Positions 1,982 through 7,900 of a stretch of 64,000 nucleotides of DNA are shown here, piece by piece; position 1 is the stretch's first letter; the number at the start of each line of letters is the position of its first letter. The stretch covers positions 372,001-436,000 of the forward strand of contig CAWKCK010000017.1 in the NCBI GenBank assembly GCA_963848135.1, read 5' to 3'. Origin of the DNA: an uncultured delta proteobacterium (GTDB taxonomy: Bacteria > Desulfobacterota > Desulfobacteria > Desulfobacterales > SG8-13). A program made the position numbers.

Positions 1982-4900
1982 CTACACCATTGATTCGTCT
2001 TATGATCGTTTTTTATCTAAACGCGCGCCGTCTTGCACCTGGCGGCTGACCTATCGGTTTCTAAGGCTAAAGGCGTTTTGCCGCCCGCATTATTTCGGCT
2101 TCTTGGCCCCGTATTTGGAACGTCCCTGTCGCCGATCAGCAACTCCGAGAGTGTCCAAGGTACCCCTGACGATGTGGTATCTGACACCAGGAAGGTCTTT
2201 AACGCGACCACCACGTACCAGGACCACCGAATGCTCCTGAAGGTTATGACCGATACCTGGAATGTAAGCGGTCACCTCGATACCTGTCGTCAGCCGCACA
2301 CGCGCGACCTTCCGCAGCGCTGAATTCGGTTTCTTTGGTGTCGAGGTGTACACGCGTGTGCAGACCCCTCTTTTCTGGGGCGCACCTTTAAGTGCCGGGG
2401 TGTTGGTCTTCTTCTTGGCCCGTTTTCTTCCCTTACGTACTAATTGGTTGATGGTCGGCATATCTACCTCTTGTTTATTGTCTGGAATCCGCTACTTTTC
2501 GAGGGATGGTAAAAGCGCAATTTGTATACAGTCGCCTATCCGATGTCAAGTTTTTTCTTTAATGATATGGCGGTTTTTGATGTGGACGGCTACGCTCTAT
2601 CTCGATCTTCAAAAAAGCAGCGCTCCTTGTTTGCCAATTCGTCAAAACTTACGCCAGTCGATTAGATTTCATCGACAACTTCAACCCCCACATCATGATA
2701 TGTGGCGACACCGGTCCCAGCGGGGATTAGGCGCCCCATAATGACGTTCTCCTTCAAACCCTTCAAGAAATCTACCGCGCCGGAAATGGATGCGTCGGTA
2801 AGCACCTTGGTGGTTTCCTGAAAGGAAGCCGCGGAGATGAAGCTGTCGGTACTGAGCGATGCTTTGGTAATGCCAAGGATGAGCGGTTCGGCAACCGCCG
2901 GTTTTCCGCCTTGCATGATAACAGCCCGGTTCTCCTCGTCAAATCGTACCCGGTCCACCTGTTCTTCCGTGATAAATTCCGTATCGCCGACCTCAACGAC
3001 TTTGACCCGTCGCATCATTTGGCGCACAATGACCTCGATATGTTTGTCGTTAATACGTACTCCCTGCAGGCGGTAAACCTCCTGGACTTCGTCCACCAGG
3101 TACCGCGCGAGGTCGACCTCGCCTTTTATATTGAGAATATCCTGGGGTACGGCCGAACCGCCGATCAGCGGTTCACCAGCGCGCACGTAATCGCCTTCGA
3201 TGACGTTGATGTGTTTTCCCCTGGGAATTAGGTAGTCTTTCGTCTCACCAACACCGTCAACAGGGCTGATGGTAACCTTCTGTTTGCCTTTCTTTGTGCC
3301 CTTGGCGATCGAAACATAACCGTCTATTGCACTCAGAATAGCCACTTCCTTCGGTTTCCTTACTTCAAACAGCTCGGCCACCCGCGGCAAACCACCTGTG
3401 ATATCCTTAGTTTTGGTGGTTGCTCGCGGCAACTTGGCCACAATGTCACCGGCCTTTACGGCGTCGCCTTCTTCAACCAGCATAATGGCATCAATCGGCA
3501 GCATGTAACGGGCCATGGCGTTCGACGCCGGCAGTTTAACTGTTTTTCCGTCCTCACCCTTAATAGAGATCCGCGGCCGTTCCTCGGTCGTCTTAGATTC
3601 GATAACTGTTTGGCTTGACTTACCCGTCACGGGATCGACCTTTTCCTGCATGGTCTTTCCGCGGATGATGTCGCCAAACTTCACGTTACCGTTGACTTCA
3701 GTAAGGATTGGTGTTGTGAAAGGATCCCAGGTCGCCAGAAGATCGCCCGCTTTCACCAGCCCGCCATCCTGGACGAGAATGTGAGCGCCGTAAATAACCG
3801 GAAAGCTTTCCAGTTCACGGCCCTTCTCGTTGACGATCGTAAACTTACCCCCCCGGCGATTCATGACCACTTCCTGCCCATCGGAATTTTTGGCAATACG
3901 CAGATCGACGAATTTTATCTTGCCATCGACCCGGGAACGGATATCAGCCTGTTCAACGCGCCGACTGGCTGTACCGCCGATGTGAAAGGTCCGCATCGTC
4001 AGCTGGGTTCCGGGTTCACCGATTGACTGCGCAGCCAGGATACCGACAGCCTGGCCATGTTCCACAGTCTGACCGTGGGCCAGATCGCGTCCGTAACAGT
4101 GAGCACATACGCCGGTCTTCGTCCTGCAGGTCAAAACGGAGCGGATTTTGATGTTTGTCAGGCCGGCATCTTCAATCCGTTGAACGGTGGGTTCATCGAT
4201 TAGGTGATTGGCCGGTACAATGACCTCCTCGGTGAAAGGATCAATGACATCTTCTGCAGTCACCCGCCCCAACACACGTTCCCCGATACGCTGAATCACT
4301 TCACCACCTTCCATCAACGGCCCGACCTCAACGCCCATGCGGGTTCCGCAGTCATCCTCCATGACAATGCAGTCCTGTGCGACGTCTGCGAGACGACGGG
4401 TGAGATAACCCGAGTTGGCTGTTTTCAGCGCCGTATCTGCCAAACCTTTGCGGGCACCGTGGGTCGAAATAAAATACTGCAACACGGACAGCCCTTCCCT
4501 GAAGTTGGAGGTAATCGGCGTCTCGATGATCTCTCCTGAAGGTTTGGCCATCAGACCCCGCATGCCGGCAAGCTGACGCATCTGGTCTTTGCTGCCCCGG
4601 GCACCGGAATCGGCCATCATGAATATAGGATTAAAGCTTTCGGAAATGATGGGATCCCCGTTCTTGTCCATAATCGGGTTGCCCGCAGAATCGTTCACCG
4701 GCGCCATCCGCATAGCCTCCATCATTGCGTTGGCCACATCATCAGTGGCTTTGGCCCAGATATCAACGACTTTGTTGTATTTTTCGCCCTGGGTAATCAG
4801 GCCCTCGGTATACTGCCGGCCGATTTCCTCCACCTGCTTCTCGGCCTCATTCAAAAGCTTCCACTTTGAATCGGGTGTGATCATGGCATCGATTGAAATC

Positions 4901-7900
4901 GACAAGCCACCTTCCGTCGAATAGCGATAACCGGTATTTTTGAGACGGTCGGACAGAATGACCGTCGCTTTTGGACCGAGATTGCGGTAAACATAATCCA
5001 CAAGATTCCGCAGCGTTTTCTTATCCATCACACGGTTGATCACGTCAAAGGGTATCGGCGGTTGTCTCTTCAAAACTTTAAAAATGTGATGCTTCCCATC
5101 AGCCGTGAGAACATTGCTAACGTCACCGATATTCAGGTAGTAAACCTTGTCAGCGGTATCTTCGTCGATATTGAACGTGTTGACAAACTCATCCTTCCTC
5201 ACGAGGCCGATATTGCCGTCGTTAACCTTGTCGGGACTCTGGGAGTGGGTCGAGACCATTTCAGTGAAGTCCGCCCCCTCTTTGATCTTGCGATGGATGC
5301 TTCTTGCTTCCTGCAAGTCTTTCACCATGATGTGGCAGAGGTCAAAGATATCCTCCTCCGGAATGATTTCCCACAACAGAATTCGCCCGACGGTGGTGTC
5401 GACGCGTTTGCCGTCCATGCGCACGGAAATCTCGGCATGTAATTCGACATTGCCGTCGTCGTAGGCAACTCTGACCTCTTCGGCATTGGCAAAATACATA
5501 CCGTCACCCTTGCGTCCCGGTATGCCCCTGGTCATGTAGTAAAGCCCCAATACGATGTCCTGACTGGGCACGATGATCGGCGACCCATTGGCTGGCGACA
5601 GGATGTTGTTGCTGGAGAGCATCAACACCCGCGCTTCGATCTGGGCTTCCACGGAGAGCGGCACGTGCACGGCCATCTGGTCGCCGTCAAAGTCGGCATT
5701 GAATGCGGTACACACCAGTGGATGCAACTGAATCGCCTTGCCTTCAATAAGGATCGGCTCGAAAGCCTGGATGCCGAGCCGATGAAGCGTCGGCGCCCGG
5801 TTCAGCATCACCGGATACTCTTTGACAACTTCATCCAACGTGTCCCAAACCTCCGGAATCTCACGTTCCACCATTTTTTTGGCACTCTTGACGGTGGACA
5901 CCAGCCCTTTCTGCTCAAGCCGGTAGTATACAAAGGGCTTGAAAAGCTCCAGCGCCATGGCCTTGGGTAATCCGCACTGGTGCAACCGCAAGTCCGGTCC
6001 GACTGTAATGACCGTCCGGCCGGAATAGTCGACCCGCTTACCCAGCAGGTTCTGTCTGAAACGCCCCTGTTTGCCCTTCAGCGTGTCACTCAGAGATTTG
6101 AGTGGCCGCTTATTGGTACCGGTTATTACCCGTCCGTGGCGACCGTTATCAAAGAGAACGTCGACAGATTCCTGGAGCATTCTTTTTTCGTTACGGACGA
6201 TAATATCGGGCGCCTTCAAGTCGATCAGCCGCTTCAATCGGTTGTTGCGATTGATGACCCGCCGGTAGAGATCGTTAAGATCGGATGTGGCGAAACGACC
6301 GCCTTCCAGCGGCACCAATGGCCTGAGATCCGGGGGTAGCACCGGTATGACATCCATAATCATCCAAATCGGGTTGACACCGGATTTACGAAACGCATCA
6401 ACGATTTTCAGGCGTTTGGCAAGTTTTTGGCGTTTGGCCACAGAACCGGTTTCCCTGATATCACGACGCAACTCTTTATAAATCTCATCCAGGTCCAGAT
6501 CGGCCAGCATTTCTTTAACGGCTTCGGCGCCGATACCGGCTTTGAATTTGTCACCGTATTTGTCGAGAGCATCGTGGTAATTTTCATCCGTCAGCAACTG
6601 GCCTCGCGTGAGATCGGTTTCCTTCGGATCGATAACGATATAACTGTCAAAATAAAGGACCTTTTCCATATTTTTAAGGGTCAGATCCAGCAGGTTCCCG
6701 ATTTTACTGGGAAGGCTTTTAAGGAACCAAATATGTGAAACCGGAGTTGCCAACTCGATGTGGGCCATGCGTTCACGACGAACTTTGGACTGAATGACTT
6801 CAACACCGCATTTTTCGCAAATTACACCGCGGTGTTTCATGCGTTTGTATTTACCGCAATTACACTCATAATCCTTGGTTGGACCAAATATTTTAGCACA
6901 GAAAAGCCCGTCGCGTTCAGGCTTGAATGTCCGATAGTTGATGGTTTCAGGCTTTTTTATTTCTCCGAAAGACCACTTTCGGATTTGCTCCGGAGACGCC
7001 AGGGAAATCTTAATTCCAGTGTATTTCCTAGGGTCTGTCGGTTTAGCGAAAAAATCGTATAATGTATCCATCATGGTTTAATTCCCTTTCACCTGTGATA
7101 TGGGATTCTTGCGGCCACTTCCTGGAATTGAAGGTGACGATCAACTCTTTCCTTCGATAAGGTCGATATCGAGTCCCAAAGCCTGGAGTTCTTTGGTCAT
7201 CACTCTGAAGGACTCTGGAATACCTGGTTCCAGAACATTCTGGCCTTTAACGATCTTTTCGTACATTCGCGTTCTGCCGGCCATGTCATCCGATTTGACG
7301 GTCAGAAACTCCTGCAGCGCAAAGGCCGCTCCATAAGCTTCCATCGCCCAGACTTCCATCTCGCCGAGCCGCTGACCGCCGAACTGTGCCTTGCCACCGA
7401 GCGGTTGTTGCGTCACCAGTGAGTATGGGCCAATGGACCGGGCATGAATCTTGTCATCCACCAAATGGTGCAGTTTCAAGACGTACATGGTGCCGACGGT
7501 AATTCTTTCCTTAAATGCCTCCCCGGTACGACCATCGTAGAGGGTTGTCTGCCCGGTCGTGCTTACCTCTGCTTCTTGCAGCAGGTTTTTGATTTCATCC
7601 TCTTTGGCGCCGTCAAATACCGGCGTCGCCATATGCACGCCGTCTTTGTACTGAATGGCAAAGGTCATCAACTCATCGTCACTGAAATCTTTAATCGATG
7701 CCTGAGCCTCGACGTCTTCGAAGATTTTTTTCAGTTTGCCTCTCAACGCTTTGAATTTTTGTTCTTCAATTAACACACTCAATTGATCACCGAGAGTTTT
7801 GGCGGCCCGCCCAAGGTGAATTTCGAGAATCTGACCGACGTTCATCCGCGAAGGGACGCCCAAGGGGTTCAGAACCATGTCGACCGGCTTGCCATCCTTG

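What a model noticed while it worked through the whole genome (the two positions that open the first line are those of the whole stretch)
2662..7074. Parvulin-type PPIase domain inserted in RNA polymerase beta' (RpoC)
The RNA polymerase beta' subunit g03901 (1470 aa) carries a ~100-residue parvulin domain (PpiC/PrsA/SurA-type peptidyl-prolyl isomerase), residues ~575-674. It is inserted within Pfam domain RNA_pol_Rpb1_3, at a point that is a direct junction (about residues 585/588) in solved beta' subunits of the E. coli/Xanthomonas type. Most relatives keep the two parvulin histidines. The insert is specific to Desulfobacterales RpoC and was not found in RpoC of the other Desulfobacterota sampled. 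As far as searched, a prolyl isomerase built into a bacterial RNAP core subunit has not been described.
Evidence so far: - pfam.tsv: Rotamase 588-667 (E 2.7e-6) and Rotamase_3 lie between the two halves of RNA_pol_Rpb1_3 (hmm 1-82 at 490-575; hmm 112-160 at 681-729). - AlphaFold2 with 31 aligned RpoC inserts: pLDDT >90 over residues 10-100 of the 131-aa piece. - Foldseek against PDB: the top hits are all parvulins (PrsA 6vj4/4wo7/1zk6, SurA, Par10 1jns, Pin1), with E about 1e-7 and TM to target up to 0.83. - phmmer against PDB: the flanks align to beta' 479-586 and 588-674 of 6j9e_D and to E. coli 479-585. No solved chain covers the insert. - search_genomes in the order: the piece matches over its full length in 37 of 46 Desulfobacterales genomes (this one included), mostly inside 1463-1563-aa frames. 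39 of 46 [...]
(Added by a program. Inside this text positions count along the whole contig: contig position 372,001 is position 1 of the stretch shown here. "Call 12" and the like, gene names such as g00115 and contig names such as C1 are that model's own, and its searches are not shown. The text may have been shortened before it was handed on; [...] marks where a part breaks off. The agent that wrote the report below was given it as the finding of a first reader that could run no searches.)

Follow-up and report, generated by a model that had tools for sequence, protein, structure and literature searches.

The report
Parvulin domain built into RNA polymerase
The largest subunit of this bacterium's RNA polymerase carries an extra, well-folded domain of the prolyl-isomerase (parvulin) type, which most Desulfobacterales share and other groups searched lack, and whose job is unknown.

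Summary
Confirmed. rpoC (window 2662-7074, minus strand, 1470 aa) is the genome's only beta' gene. It carries a 98-residue insert (residues 573-670) where solved beta' chains run straight through. The site is also where cyanobacterial beta' is split into two genes.

The insert is a parvulin domain: Pfam Rotamase scores above its cut-off, AlphaFold2 gives pLDDT above 94 over the core, and the listed PDB fold matches are parvulins or parvulin-containing chaperones.

It was found in 178 of 188 sampled Desulfobacterales rpoC genes. None of 387 other Desulfobacterota genomes matched in a long frame. A tree fits one gain and four later losses. dN/dS is 0.07-0.27.

Catalytic competence is doubtful. 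Both histidines survive in only 125 of 179 inserts, and the Cys/Asp position is Cys or Asp in 11 of 177. The hydrophobic pocket and an acidic K-D-E-F motif are far better kept.

Best reading: a surface peptide-binding or docking module, not an obligate enzyme. No paper found describes it; Lane & Darst 2010 could not be read.

The parts
2662..7074 (-). rpoC, RNA polymerase beta' subunit, 1470 aa, the only copy in the genome
   Evidence: Open frame. NCBIfam TIGR02386 scores 1764 bits against a cut-off of 963.5. Five Rpb1 Pfam domains match. The rpoC fragment matches a single place in the genome.
5359..7074 (-). beta' residues 1-572: clamp, active site (NADFDGD) and the first part of the pore domain, ending in the conserved [10 protein letters not shown] segment
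   Evidence: Aligns to E. coli beta' 4-585. The cyanobacterial rpoC1 (gamma) model TIGR02387 covers residues 19-582.
5065..5358 (-). Parvulin-fold insert, residues 573-670 (98 aa)
   Evidence: Pfam Rotamase and Rotamase_3 score above their cut-offs. phmmer to PrsA and Par10 gives E 6e-5 to 1e-4. AlphaFold2 core pLDDT is above 94. The listed Foldseek PDB matches are parvulins or parvulin-containing chaperones. dN/dS is 0.07-0.27.
5332..5334 (-). His581, first histidine of the parvulin dual-His motif (aligned to Par10 His8)
   Evidence: Par10 alignment. His in 136 of 179 inserts.
5236..5238 (-). Ser613, at the position of Par10 Cys40 (the Cys/Asp of active parvulins)
   Evidence: Par10 alignment. 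Family counts at this position: Ser 94, Ala 22, Gly 20, Asp 10 of 179. Cys or Asp in 11 of 177.
5185..5196 (-). K-D-E-F motif, residues 627-630. Phe630 aligns to Par10 Met57 (substrate-binding site). Glu629 is acidic in 172 of 179 inserts.
   Evidence: The role of Par10 Met57 is from passages of PMC7353009.
5086..5088 (-). His663, second histidine of the dual-His motif
   Evidence: PrsA alignments. His in 147 of 179 inserts.
2662..5064 (-). beta' residues 671-1470: rest of the pore domain, funnel and rim helices, bridge helix, trigger loop, C-terminus
   Evidence: The second phmmer stretch reaches E. coli and Pseudomonas-type beta'. The cyanobacterial rpoC2 models start at residue 678/679.
7141..11331 (-). 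rpoB (beta subunit, 1396 aa) directly upstream. Operon context is rplJ-rplL-rpoB-rpoC-rpsL-rpsG-tuf.
   Evidence: Pfam on the neighbouring frames.

Best explanation
A single parvulin domain was captured once, early in Desulfobacterales, into a surface seam of the beta' pore domain. This is the same seam at which cyanobacterial and plastid beta' is split into two genes. The first and last strands of the domain are modelled as the long strands at its two ends, and the linkers are only a few residues long. It therefore most likely hangs as a plug-in knob on the outside of the housekeeping RNA polymerase. The canonical parvulin peptide cleft is kept: the hydrophobic positions equivalent to Par10 Leu, Met57 and Phe61, plus a family-specific acidic Asp/Glu-Glu pair. 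Most of the catalytic signature is not kept. I therefore read it as a peptide-binding or docking module, at most a weak isomerase. It would hold a proline-containing or hydrophobic segment of an RNA-polymerase-associated protein, or of the polymerase itself, much as the inactive parvulin domains of SurA (P1) and PpiD bind clients. Shown: the insert, its fold, its site, its distribution, purifying selection, repeated loss, and the residue pattern. Inferred: surface exposure, ligand binding, and the lack of strong catalysis. Unknown: the partner.
For: Fold and family.
Site: solved beta' chains are continuous here. Natural insert-less relatives join the flanks with 0-5 residues. The cyanobacterial rpoC1 model ends at residue 582 and the rpoC2 models begin at 678/679. 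The site therefore tolerates a chain break.
Plug-in geometry: strand 19-27 and strand 104-114 lie at the two ends of the domain model. Linker blocks have pLDDT 81 in the 281-aa context model.
Housekeeping enzyme: single rpoC copy in the rplJL-rpoBC operon.
Selection: dN/dS is 0.07-0.27 in all 15 computable pairs. These include pairs with neither histidine (L066/L067 0.10, L054/L056 0.16, L053/L063 0.27).
Pocket kept better than catalytic residues, n=179: Phe665 174; Gly623 169; residue 629 Glu 154 plus Asp 18; Phe630 149 plus Leu 21; Phe634 150 plus Tyr 22. Against these, His581 is 136 and His663 is 147. Cys/Asp at 613 is 11 of 177.
Divergence from working parvulins: in this genome the free-standing parvulins score 111.6, 105.4 and 51.2 bits to Pfam Rotamase, and the insert scores 32.9. 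The Thr and Phe that the two best-scoring of them have before the second His are Ala658 and Gly660 in the insert.
The loop that would hold the catalytic Cys/Asp varies in length and carries low-complexity expansions in some lineages. Inserts range from 84 to 127 aa.
Against: No binding partner was identified and no binding was tested. Purifying selection and a conserved core are also expected for a domain that merely has to fold without harming an essential enzyme. The conserved Phe630, Phe634 and Phe665 could be core residues rather than ligand contacts; I had no model coordinates to tell them apart. 125 of 179 inserts keep both histidines, which is more than drift alone would predict if they had no role. 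Pin1 itself has Ser, not Phe, three residues before the second His (recalled), so some of the 'missing' residues are not universal requirements. Four independent losses show that the polymerase works without the domain. The pTM of 0.59 for the context model leaves the orientation on the enzyme open. The position relative to the secondary channel, omega and alpha rests on recalled structural knowledge, not on a computation here.
Confidence: 0.5

Rival explanations
1. It is a working prolyl isomerase tethered to RNA polymerase, at least in the roughly 70% of lineages that keep both histidines, this genome included. It would catalyse cis/trans switching of a proline in a transcription factor or in the polymerase. 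That would make it a built-in counterpart of free PpiC in E. coli or of Ess1/Pin1 on the Pol II tail.
For: His581 and His663 are present here, and both are kept in 125 of 179 inserts. The hydrophobic proline pocket positions are kept. The closest single-domain solved relatives by sequence include Par10 (E 8.3e-5) and PrsA domains, which are active enzymes. [quoted passage not shown] A parvulin acting on transcription proteins therefore has a precedent.
Against: The Cys/Asp position is Ser here, and Cys or Asp in only 11 of 177. Ala658 and Gly660 replace the Thr and Phe seen in this genome's two best-scoring canonical parvulins. In E. coli PpiC the F81A change abolished activity (PMC7353009). 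By counting back from the second His, with no gap, Phe81 corresponds to position 660, where no listed residue is aromatic or aliphatic: Gly 51, Asp 49, Glu 26, Asn 20 of 177. Twenty-one inserts have neither histidine and are still under purifying selection. The Rotamase score is 32.9 bits, against 105-112 for this genome's two best-scoring free-standing parvulins and 51.2 for the third.
Confidence: 0.25
2. It is a tolerated passenger: a domain that landed in a permissive seam and persists because deleting it cleanly is rare. It has no ligand and no effect on transcription beyond bulk.
For: The site tolerates a chain break in cyanobacteria and small indels elsewhere: 13 aa in an outgroup and a 23-aa remnant in G045. 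There were at least four losses, one of them inside a genus whose other sampled members keep the insert. Insert identity falls to 14-30% while the flanks stay much more alike. dN/dS is two- to six-fold higher than in the flanks in most pairs. Some lineages carry shortened (84 aa) or loop-expanded (127 aa) versions.
Against: It is retained in 178 of 188 sampled genomes across 77 family codes. dN/dS is well below 1 in every computable pair. Family-specific surface-type residues are strongly kept: residue 629 is acidic in 172 of 179 and Asp615 is present in 120 of 179. The domain is consistently acidic, with median net charge -7 and negative charge in 159 of 179. A pure folding constraint does not require any of this.
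Confidence: 0.2
3. It is not a real part of the protein: an assembly artefact, an intein or a mobile element.
For: None found. Considered only because large in-frame inserts in essential genes are sometimes inteins.
Against: It is in frame and at the same codon position in 176 sequenced inserts from independent assemblies, including single-contig genomes. It is a parvulin fold, not a Hint fold. It evolves under purifying selection as coding sequence.
Confidence: 0.01

Closest known systems
E. coli Par10 / PpiC (PDB 1jns), the minimal single-domain cytoplasmic parvulin
   Same: About the same size, and the same fold (Foldseek TM-to-target 0.71). It is alignable by sequence over residues 580-635 (E 8.3e-5). 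The short loop after the first strand matches, with no Pin1-type basic phosphate loop. His8, Leu, Met57 and Phe61 correspond to His581, Ile622, Phe630 and Phe634.
   Different: Par10 is a free enzyme with Cys40; the insert has Ser613. The insert is embedded in beta', has six extra residues after the Phe634 helix, and is strongly acidic.
Parvulin domains of the chaperones PrsA, SurA (P1) and PpiD
   Same: These are the best sequence and fold matches: PrsA 6vj4 at E 5.8e-5 by phmmer and 2.4e-7 by Foldseek, SurA P1 2pv1 and PpiD 2kgj also listed. They are parvulin domains inserted into or appended to a larger protein. SurA P1 and PpiD bind peptides without isomerase activity (recalled from the literature, not read here).
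   Different: Those proteins are periplasmic or extracytoplasmic folding helpers. This domain sits in a cytoplasmic nucleic-acid enzyme.
Ess1 / Pin1 acting on the C-terminal repeat of eukaryotic RNA polymerase II
   Same: A parvulin associated with the largest subunit of a multisubunit RNA polymerase (abstract of PMC7994582 seen in the listing). This is the nearest functional analogy.
   Different: Ess1/Pin1 is a separate protein with a WW domain and a phosphate-binding loop, and it acts on phospho-Ser-Pro repeats. Bacterial beta' has no such tail. The insert has neither a WW domain nor the long basic loop. The analogy is conceptual only.
Lineage-specific inserts of bacterial RNA polymerase (beta' SI3/i6, Thermus beta' i2, beta i4/i9; the BEAN and HABAS domains)
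   Same: A lineage-restricted domain inserted between conserved regions of a large subunit, dispensable in relatives. Alvarez-Carreno et al. 2024 list the middle of beta'-bD4, the element whose C-terminal edge carries this insert, among seven insertion locations (sections 2.1 and 2.4 of PMC11515920).
   Different: That paper states that most beta' inserts are HABAS (sandwich-barrel hybrid) domains. It names no parvulin, PPIase or Desulfo- taxon in its text or in its readable supplement. The fold here belongs to an enzyme family, not to the two recurrent insert folds.
The rpoC1/rpoC2 split of cyanobacterial and plastid beta'
   Same: The same seam of the protein. The rpoC1 model covers residues 19-582 and the rpoC2 models start at 678/679, bracketing the insert at 573-670.
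   Different: There the chain is cut; here a folded domain is spliced in and the chain stays whole.

Membership tests
Parvulin / PpiC-type PPIase domain (Pfam PF00639 Rotamase) | Sequence match above the curated family threshold | tested here: met
   Rotamase 28.2 bits against cut-off 21.7; Rotamase_3 27.4 against 22.5. 32.9 bits in the genome scan. Rotamase_2 is below its cut-off.
Parvulin / PpiC-type PPIase domain (Pfam PF00639 Rotamase) | Parvulin fold (four-stranded sheet packed with helices; first and last strands at the two ends of the domain) | tested here: met
   AlphaFold2 core pLDDT above 94, with elements E19-27, H30-41, H46-53, H57-61, E64-69, H70-77, H81-88, E99-101, E104-114. The listed Foldseek PDB matches are parvulins or parvulin-containing chaperones, with TM-to-target up to 0.85.
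Parvulin / PpiC-type PPIase domain (Pfam PF00639 Rotamase) | Dual-histidine motif | tested here: met
   His581 and His663 are present in this protein. Among 179 relatives both are kept in 125, one in 33 and none in 21.
Parvulin / PpiC-type PPIase domain (Pfam PF00639 Rotamase) | Cys or Asp at the position of Par10 Cys40 (Pin1 Cys113 and Par14 Asp74 by recall) | tested here: not met
   Ser613 aligns to Par10 Cys40. Cys or Asp in 11 of 177 relatives. Two canonical parvulins of the same genome have Gly there, so this feature is not universal among bacterial parvulin domains.
Parvulin / PpiC-type PPIase domain (Pfam PF00639 Rotamase) | Thr/Ser five residues before the second His (Pin1 Thr152 by recall) | tested here: not met
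   Ala658 here, where this genome's two best-scoring free-standing parvulins have Thr. Family counts: Ala 51, Ser 32, Thr 18 of 179.
Parvulin / PpiC-type PPIase domain (Pfam PF00639 Rotamase) | Hydrophobic proline pocket (Par10 Leu of D-L-G, Met57, Phe61) | tested here: met
   Ile622, Phe630 and Phe634 align to them. They are hydrophobic in 146 (Ile, Leu or Val), 170 (Phe or Leu) and 172 (Phe or Tyr) of 179.
Parvulin / PpiC-type PPIase domain (Pfam PF00639 Rotamase) | [quoted passage not shown] | not testable with these tools
   Needs an enzyme assay.
Pin1/Ess1 subfamily (phospho-specific parvulins) | N-terminal WW domain and the extended basic phosphate-binding loop after strand 1 | tested here: not met
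   No WW domain in Pfam. The stretch after His581 aligns without a gap to the short Par10 loop.
Bacterial RNA polymerase beta' (RpoC) | Equivalog model above cut-off, catalytic NADFDGD, operon with rpoB | tested here: met
   TIGR02386 1764 bits against 963.5. The motif is seen in the translation. rpoB lies directly upstream. Single copy.
Recurrent RNA polymerase insert folds (HABAS/SBHM, BEAN/BBM2) | The insert has the sandwich-barrel hybrid or BBM2 fold | tested here: not met
   None of the Foldseek matches listed for the insert model is an RNA polymerase insert domain.

The most novel reading that the evidence does not exclude
Desulfobacterales carry a regulatory prolyl switch built into the core RNA polymerase. 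The parvulin knob would bind, and in histidine-bearing lineages isomerise, a proline-containing segment of a factor that docks on the pore/funnel face of the enzyme. Candidates are a secondary-channel factor, omega or the alpha linker. Transcription would then be gated in cis, the way Ess1/Pin1 gates Pol II in trans. This would be the first enzyme-family domain with a ligand-handling role embedded in a bacterial RNA polymerase core subunit.
Probability: 0.15. Interest if true: 0.85.

Novelty: new variant of a known kind. Interest (0 to 1): 0.6.

Why it matters
Lineage-specific inserts of bacterial RNA polymerase are known. The inserts characterised so far are repeats of two folds, and several of them serve as docking sites for regulators or tune the catalytic cycle. 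A parvulin domain is a different thing: a ready-made peptide-binding, potentially proline-isomerising, module in the enzyme that transcribes every gene of a large and ecologically important order of sulfate reducers. If it binds a partner, it defines a new contact point on the polymerase and possibly a new kind of regulation. If it is catalytically dead in some families and live in others, the clade is a natural series for asking how an enzyme fold is turned into a scaffold. The natural insert-less relatives give ready-made deletion designs. It also shows that the beta' seam used for the cyanobacterial gene split is a general entry point for change.

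Tried and rejected

2. Lane & Darst 2010 (both papers) are not held under their PMC ids or PubMed id (ids confirmed from a reference list). 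Iyer et al. 2004 has no PMC id in that reference list and was not looked up. I cannot exclude that one of them lists an unnamed beta' insert at this site.

3. The search for homologous proteins, restricted to residues 573-670 of the long protein, returned only 10 close relatives at 72-100% identity. Those with names were 'Desulfobacterales bacterium' beta'. It reached no further because of its word index.

4. The profile search of 1.84 billion cluster representatives gave 4995 hits at E up to 0.001. Eight of the best 150 cover both flanks and the insert (seven at E below 1e-37), and all eight are fragments of 105-385 aa. Most other listed hits are parvulin or multi-parvulin proteins of up to 1303 aa. 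Full-length RpoC with the insert does not appear, presumably because clustering at 50% identity merges RpoC sequences. This search therefore says nothing about RpoC outside the order.

A 23-sequence alignment worked but scanned with one narrow motif only. Divergent inserts in other phyla would be missed.

6. The 281-residue context model (pTM 0.59) did not settle how the domain sits on the core. The tools return no coordinates, so I could not measure distances to the secondary channel, omega or alpha, nor see whether Glu629 faces the cleft.

7. Complex prediction was not used. I had no partner with enough prior support to justify the single job.

8. An intein or mobile-element reading was considered and rejected (parvulin fold; coding-type selection).

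Full report
THE OBSERVATION. The frame at window 2662-7074 is on the minus strand and encodes a 1470-residue protein without stops. It is the beta' subunit of RNA polymerase. NCBIfam's rpoC equivalog scores 1764 bits against a cut-off of 963.5, and five Rpb1 Pfam domains match in order. The catalytic NADFDGD is in the translation. rpoB lies directly upstream, in an rplJ-rplL-rpoB-rpoC-rpsL-rpsG-tuf arrangement. It is the only rpoC in the 6.03-Mb assembly.

Pfam splits RNA_pol_Rpb1_3 into two stretches. Between them it places Rotamase (588-667, E 3.8e-6, 28.2 bits against a cut-off of 21.7) and Rotamase_3 (27.4 against 22.5). Against all PDB chains, residues 5-573 align to E. coli beta' 4-585, and the alignment resumes at 660-674. 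No solved beta' covers the piece between. Projecting the conserved flanks onto 68 related loci puts the insert at residues 573-670, window 5065-5358.

WHAT THE INSERT IS. The 98 residues alone find PrsA, Par10 (PpiC) and archaeal parvulins in PDB by sequence, at E 6e-5 to 1e-3. AlphaFold2, run on an alignment of 67 inserts with 15-residue flanks, gives mean pLDDT 85.7. Every ten-residue block from 21 to 110 is at 94 or above. The order of elements is that of a parvulin, with one extra short helix. In Foldseek against PDB the listed matches are parvulin domains or parvulin-containing chaperones: PrsA, SurA, Par10, NmPin, Par14, PpiD and Pin1. The best E is 2.4e-7 and TM-to-target reaches 0.85 for the isolated PrsA domains. 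The long strands of the model lie at the two ends of the domain. In a 281-residue context model the linker blocks keep pLDDT 81. The domain is thus a compact plug-in with short connections. The pTM of that model (0.59) leaves its orientation on the enzyme open.

WHERE IT SITS. The insertion point is the C-terminal edge of the bacterial-specific element that Alvarez-Carreno et al. 2024 call beta'-bD4. That element is itself inserted in universal domain uD3, and those authors list its middle among seven locations of lineage-specific beta' inserts (sections 2.1 and 2.4 read). The NCBIfam models of the cyanobacterial split subunits bracket the insert exactly. The rpoC1 (gamma) model matches residues 19-582 and the rpoC2 models begin at 678/679. 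The same seam therefore tolerates a chain break in cyanobacteria and plastids. It tolerates a 13-residue piece in one outgroup genome and a direct junction of 0-5 residues in insert-less relatives. From these I infer an exposed position on the pore/funnel face, away from the DNA and RNA paths. I could not measure it.

DISTRIBUTION. A 118-residue query (the insert with 10-residue flanks) was run over 201 genomes drawn evenly from the order. It gave 150 matches covering the whole query or all but its last residue, one per genome. Of these, 140 lie in open frames of 1402-2433 aa and ten in shorter frames of 732-1272 aa.

The other 51 genomes were searched again with a 241-residue query spanning the site, with these results:
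- 24 have an insert of similar length that is too divergent for the first query.
- 2 have an insert with an extra loop.
- 2 are broken by frame or contig ends but hold part of it.
- 10 have the two flanks abutting, in frames of 1073-1437 aa.
- 13 gave no rpoC fragment at all.

So 178 of 188 genomes with a recovered rpoC carry the insert. A 'class' sample of 301 genomes turned out to contain only this order and agrees (274 of 301 match).

In a phylum sample of 401 genomes, 14 belong to the order. Thirteen of those gave full-length matches in frames of 1460-1531 aa. The fourteenth, G027, has a divergent insert found only. The 387 genomes of other orders gave only partial matches in frames of 227-645 aa, that is free-standing parvulins, or nothing. 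Five outgroup genomes checked directly have insert-less rpoC of 1399-1432 aa.

A motif scan of one genome for each of 185,579 species confirmed 97 relatives. The 80 that were kept carry Desulfobacterales-type names: Desulfatitalea alkaliphila, Desulfosarcina sp., Candidatus Desulfatibia, Desulfobacteraceae, Eth-SRB bins and 'Deltaproteobacteria bacterium'. A few MAGs are labelled Proteobacteria, Pseudomonadota or Nitrospinaceae. Four of those five mislabelled MAGs have rpoC halves 85-96% identical to in-order sequences, against 70-74% to outgroups. For the fifth, L154, the listed matches (71-73% over its full length) do not separate in-order sequences from outgroups. That scan used one narrow motif, so it does not prove absence elsewhere.

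HISTORY. A maximum-likelihood tree was built from 82 RpoC fragments with the insert removed (1140 columns, LG+G4) and rooted on the five outgroups. Two insert-less families of the order (f82, f8) fall at the base, with supports of 100 and 84. All 67 insert-bearing rows fall in the remaining clade. Four insert-less lineages are nested inside that clade:
- G192, inside a genus whose other sampled members keep the insert.
- G020.
- The three genomes of family f70.
- G045, which keeps a 23-residue remnant.

The minimum is five changes, read as one gain and four losses. Strongly supported branches alone force at least four changes. The polymerase therefore does not need the domain to work.

SELECTION AND RESIDUE PATTERN. 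In 15 pairs of close relatives for which synonymous change was not saturated, dN/dS of the insert is 0.07-0.27, against 0.011-0.26 for 300 flanking codons. Three further pairs were saturated. Pairs whose inserts lack both histidines behave the same way (0.10, 0.16, 0.27).

I collected 179 inserts: 176 from the order sample and 3 from the class sample, representing 77 GTDB family codes. Both histidines are kept in 125, one in 33 and none in 21. In 15 family codes no sampled member keeps both, including all four sampled members of f38, the family code with the most genomes in the class sample. The residue aligned to Par10 Cys40 is Ser613 here. Across the family it is Ser 94, Ala 22, Gly 20 and Asp 10; Cys or Asp occurs in 11 of 177.

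Against this genome's two best-scoring free-standing parvulins, the insert has Ala for Thr five residues before the second His and Gly for Phe three residues before it. It also lacks 12 residues of the first helix region and has six extra residues after the Phe634 helix. It scores 32.9 bits to Pfam Rotamase, where the three free-standing domains score 111.6, 105.4 and 51.2.

The best-kept positions are structural glycines and the hydrophobic cleft: Gly623 169, Phe665 174, Phe630 149 plus Leu 21, and Phe634 150 plus Tyr 22 of 179. Phe630 aligns to Par10 Met57, which Wojtkiewicz and co-workers place in the substrate-binding site; in their hands PpiC F81A lost activity (passages of PMC7353009). 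There is also a family-specific acidic position, residue 629 (Glu 154, Asp 18). The domain is acidic overall, with median net charge -7 and negative charge in 159 of 179. The loop that would carry the catalytic Cys/Asp varies in length and is expanded with low-complexity sequence in some lineages. Inserts span 84-127 residues.

READING. The fold, the cleft and a charged surface motif are under selection across the whole clade. The catalytic signature is incomplete even where the histidines survive, and it is gone in whole families. The function common to the clade is therefore more likely binding than catalysis. I read it as a docking or peptide-holding knob on the outside of the housekeeping polymerase, comparable in kind to the inactive parvulin domains of SurA and PpiD (recalled).

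A working isomerase in the histidine-bearing majority remains possible (I give it 0.25). Its best support is indirect: free PpiC of E. coli co-purifies with NusG, Rho, SuhB and RpoA. A tolerated passenger without a ligand gets 0.2; it fits the repeated losses and the fast divergence. It does not fit the conserved acidic motif or the retention in 178 of 188 genomes. An artefact, intein or mobile element is excluded for practical purposes. Omega is present in this genome, so the insert does not simply replace it.

NOVELTY. Full-text searches returned nothing that describes this insert. The term sets were:
- parvulin + RNA polymerase + lineage-specific insert;
- parvulin + rpoC;
- rpoC + Desulfobacterales + insertion;
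- prolyl isomerase domain + RNA polymerase subunit + inserted;
- lineage-specific insert + Deltaproteobacteria + RNA polymerase.

The 2024 survey of beta and beta' inserts has no occurrence of parvulin, PPIase, rotamase, isomerase or Desulfo- in its text or in its readable supplement. Its table of unusual beta' architectures lists no Desulfobacterota; its supplementary PDF could not be read. Lane & Darst 2010 and Iyer et al. 2004 could not be read. The architecture is also visible to anyone who runs Pfam on these proteins: precomputed Pfam lists already carry PF00639. I therefore rate it a new variant of a known kind, namely a lineage-specific RNA polymerase insert with a fold not reported for such inserts. 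It is of real but moderate interest until a partner or an activity is shown.

Noticed in passing
window 1413-1508 (between rpsG at 1508-1978 and tuf at 220-1413, minus strand): EF-Tu follows ribosomal protein S7 directly, with a gap of about 95 bases. The usual fusA (EF-G) of the str operon is not between them.
   Followed up: no
L074 (G192:C14:22366-25575) compared with L025, L031 and L036: G192 has a clean in-frame loss of the parvulin domain. It leaves a five-residue junction that keeps the first residues of its relatives' insert. Three other genomes of the same genus code keep the full 98 residues. This is a recent natural deletion, useful as a design for a knock-out.
   Followed up: partly
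L079 (G045:C40:52321-55845); L085 (G373:C40:7641-10862): The same site holds a 23-residue acidic remnant in G045, which is nested among insert-bearing lineages. It holds an unrelated 13-residue piece in one outgroup genome of another order. The seam looks like an indel hot spot.
   Followed up: partly
L063, L069, L070, L049 (insert regions): In some lineages the loop that corresponds to the catalytic Cys/Asp loop of parvulins is expanded by 10-30 residues of Ser-, Glu- and Lys-rich low-complexity sequence. Inserts reach up to 127 aa.
   Followed up: no
window 5065-5095 and 5359-5388 (residues 660-670 and 563-572): The last strand of the parvulin resembles the conserved beta' segment just before the insert. 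The resemblance is close enough that phmmer started its second alignment at residue 660, against E. coli-type residues about 576-586, so both were aligned to the same piece of the solved chains. Whether this is chance or a trace of how the domain was captured was not examined.
   Followed up: no
L155 (CAXMTB010000006.1, 33190-36483): A MAG labelled 'uncultured Nitrospinaceae bacterium' carries an rpoC whose N-terminal half is 96% identical to that of an in-order genome, and it has the insert. The contig is probably mis-binned or the bin is mislabelled. The same likely holds for three bins labelled Proteobacteria or Pseudomonadota (L102, L103, L149). The listed matches for a fourth, L154, do not separate in-order sequences from outgroups.
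   Followed up: partly
G065:C1 and G008:C1 (rows): Two single-contig genomes with low completeness (79% and 60%) show the insert in open frames of only 893 and 903 aa. This suggests frame breaks in rpoC, perhaps from uncorrected long-read errors.
   Followed up: no
window 7141-11331: rpoB encodes 1396 aa, with the Rpb2_1 and Rpb2_6 Pfam matches stretched over 481 and 560 residues. The beta subunit therefore also carries sizeable inserts. Their folds were not examined.
   Followed up: no
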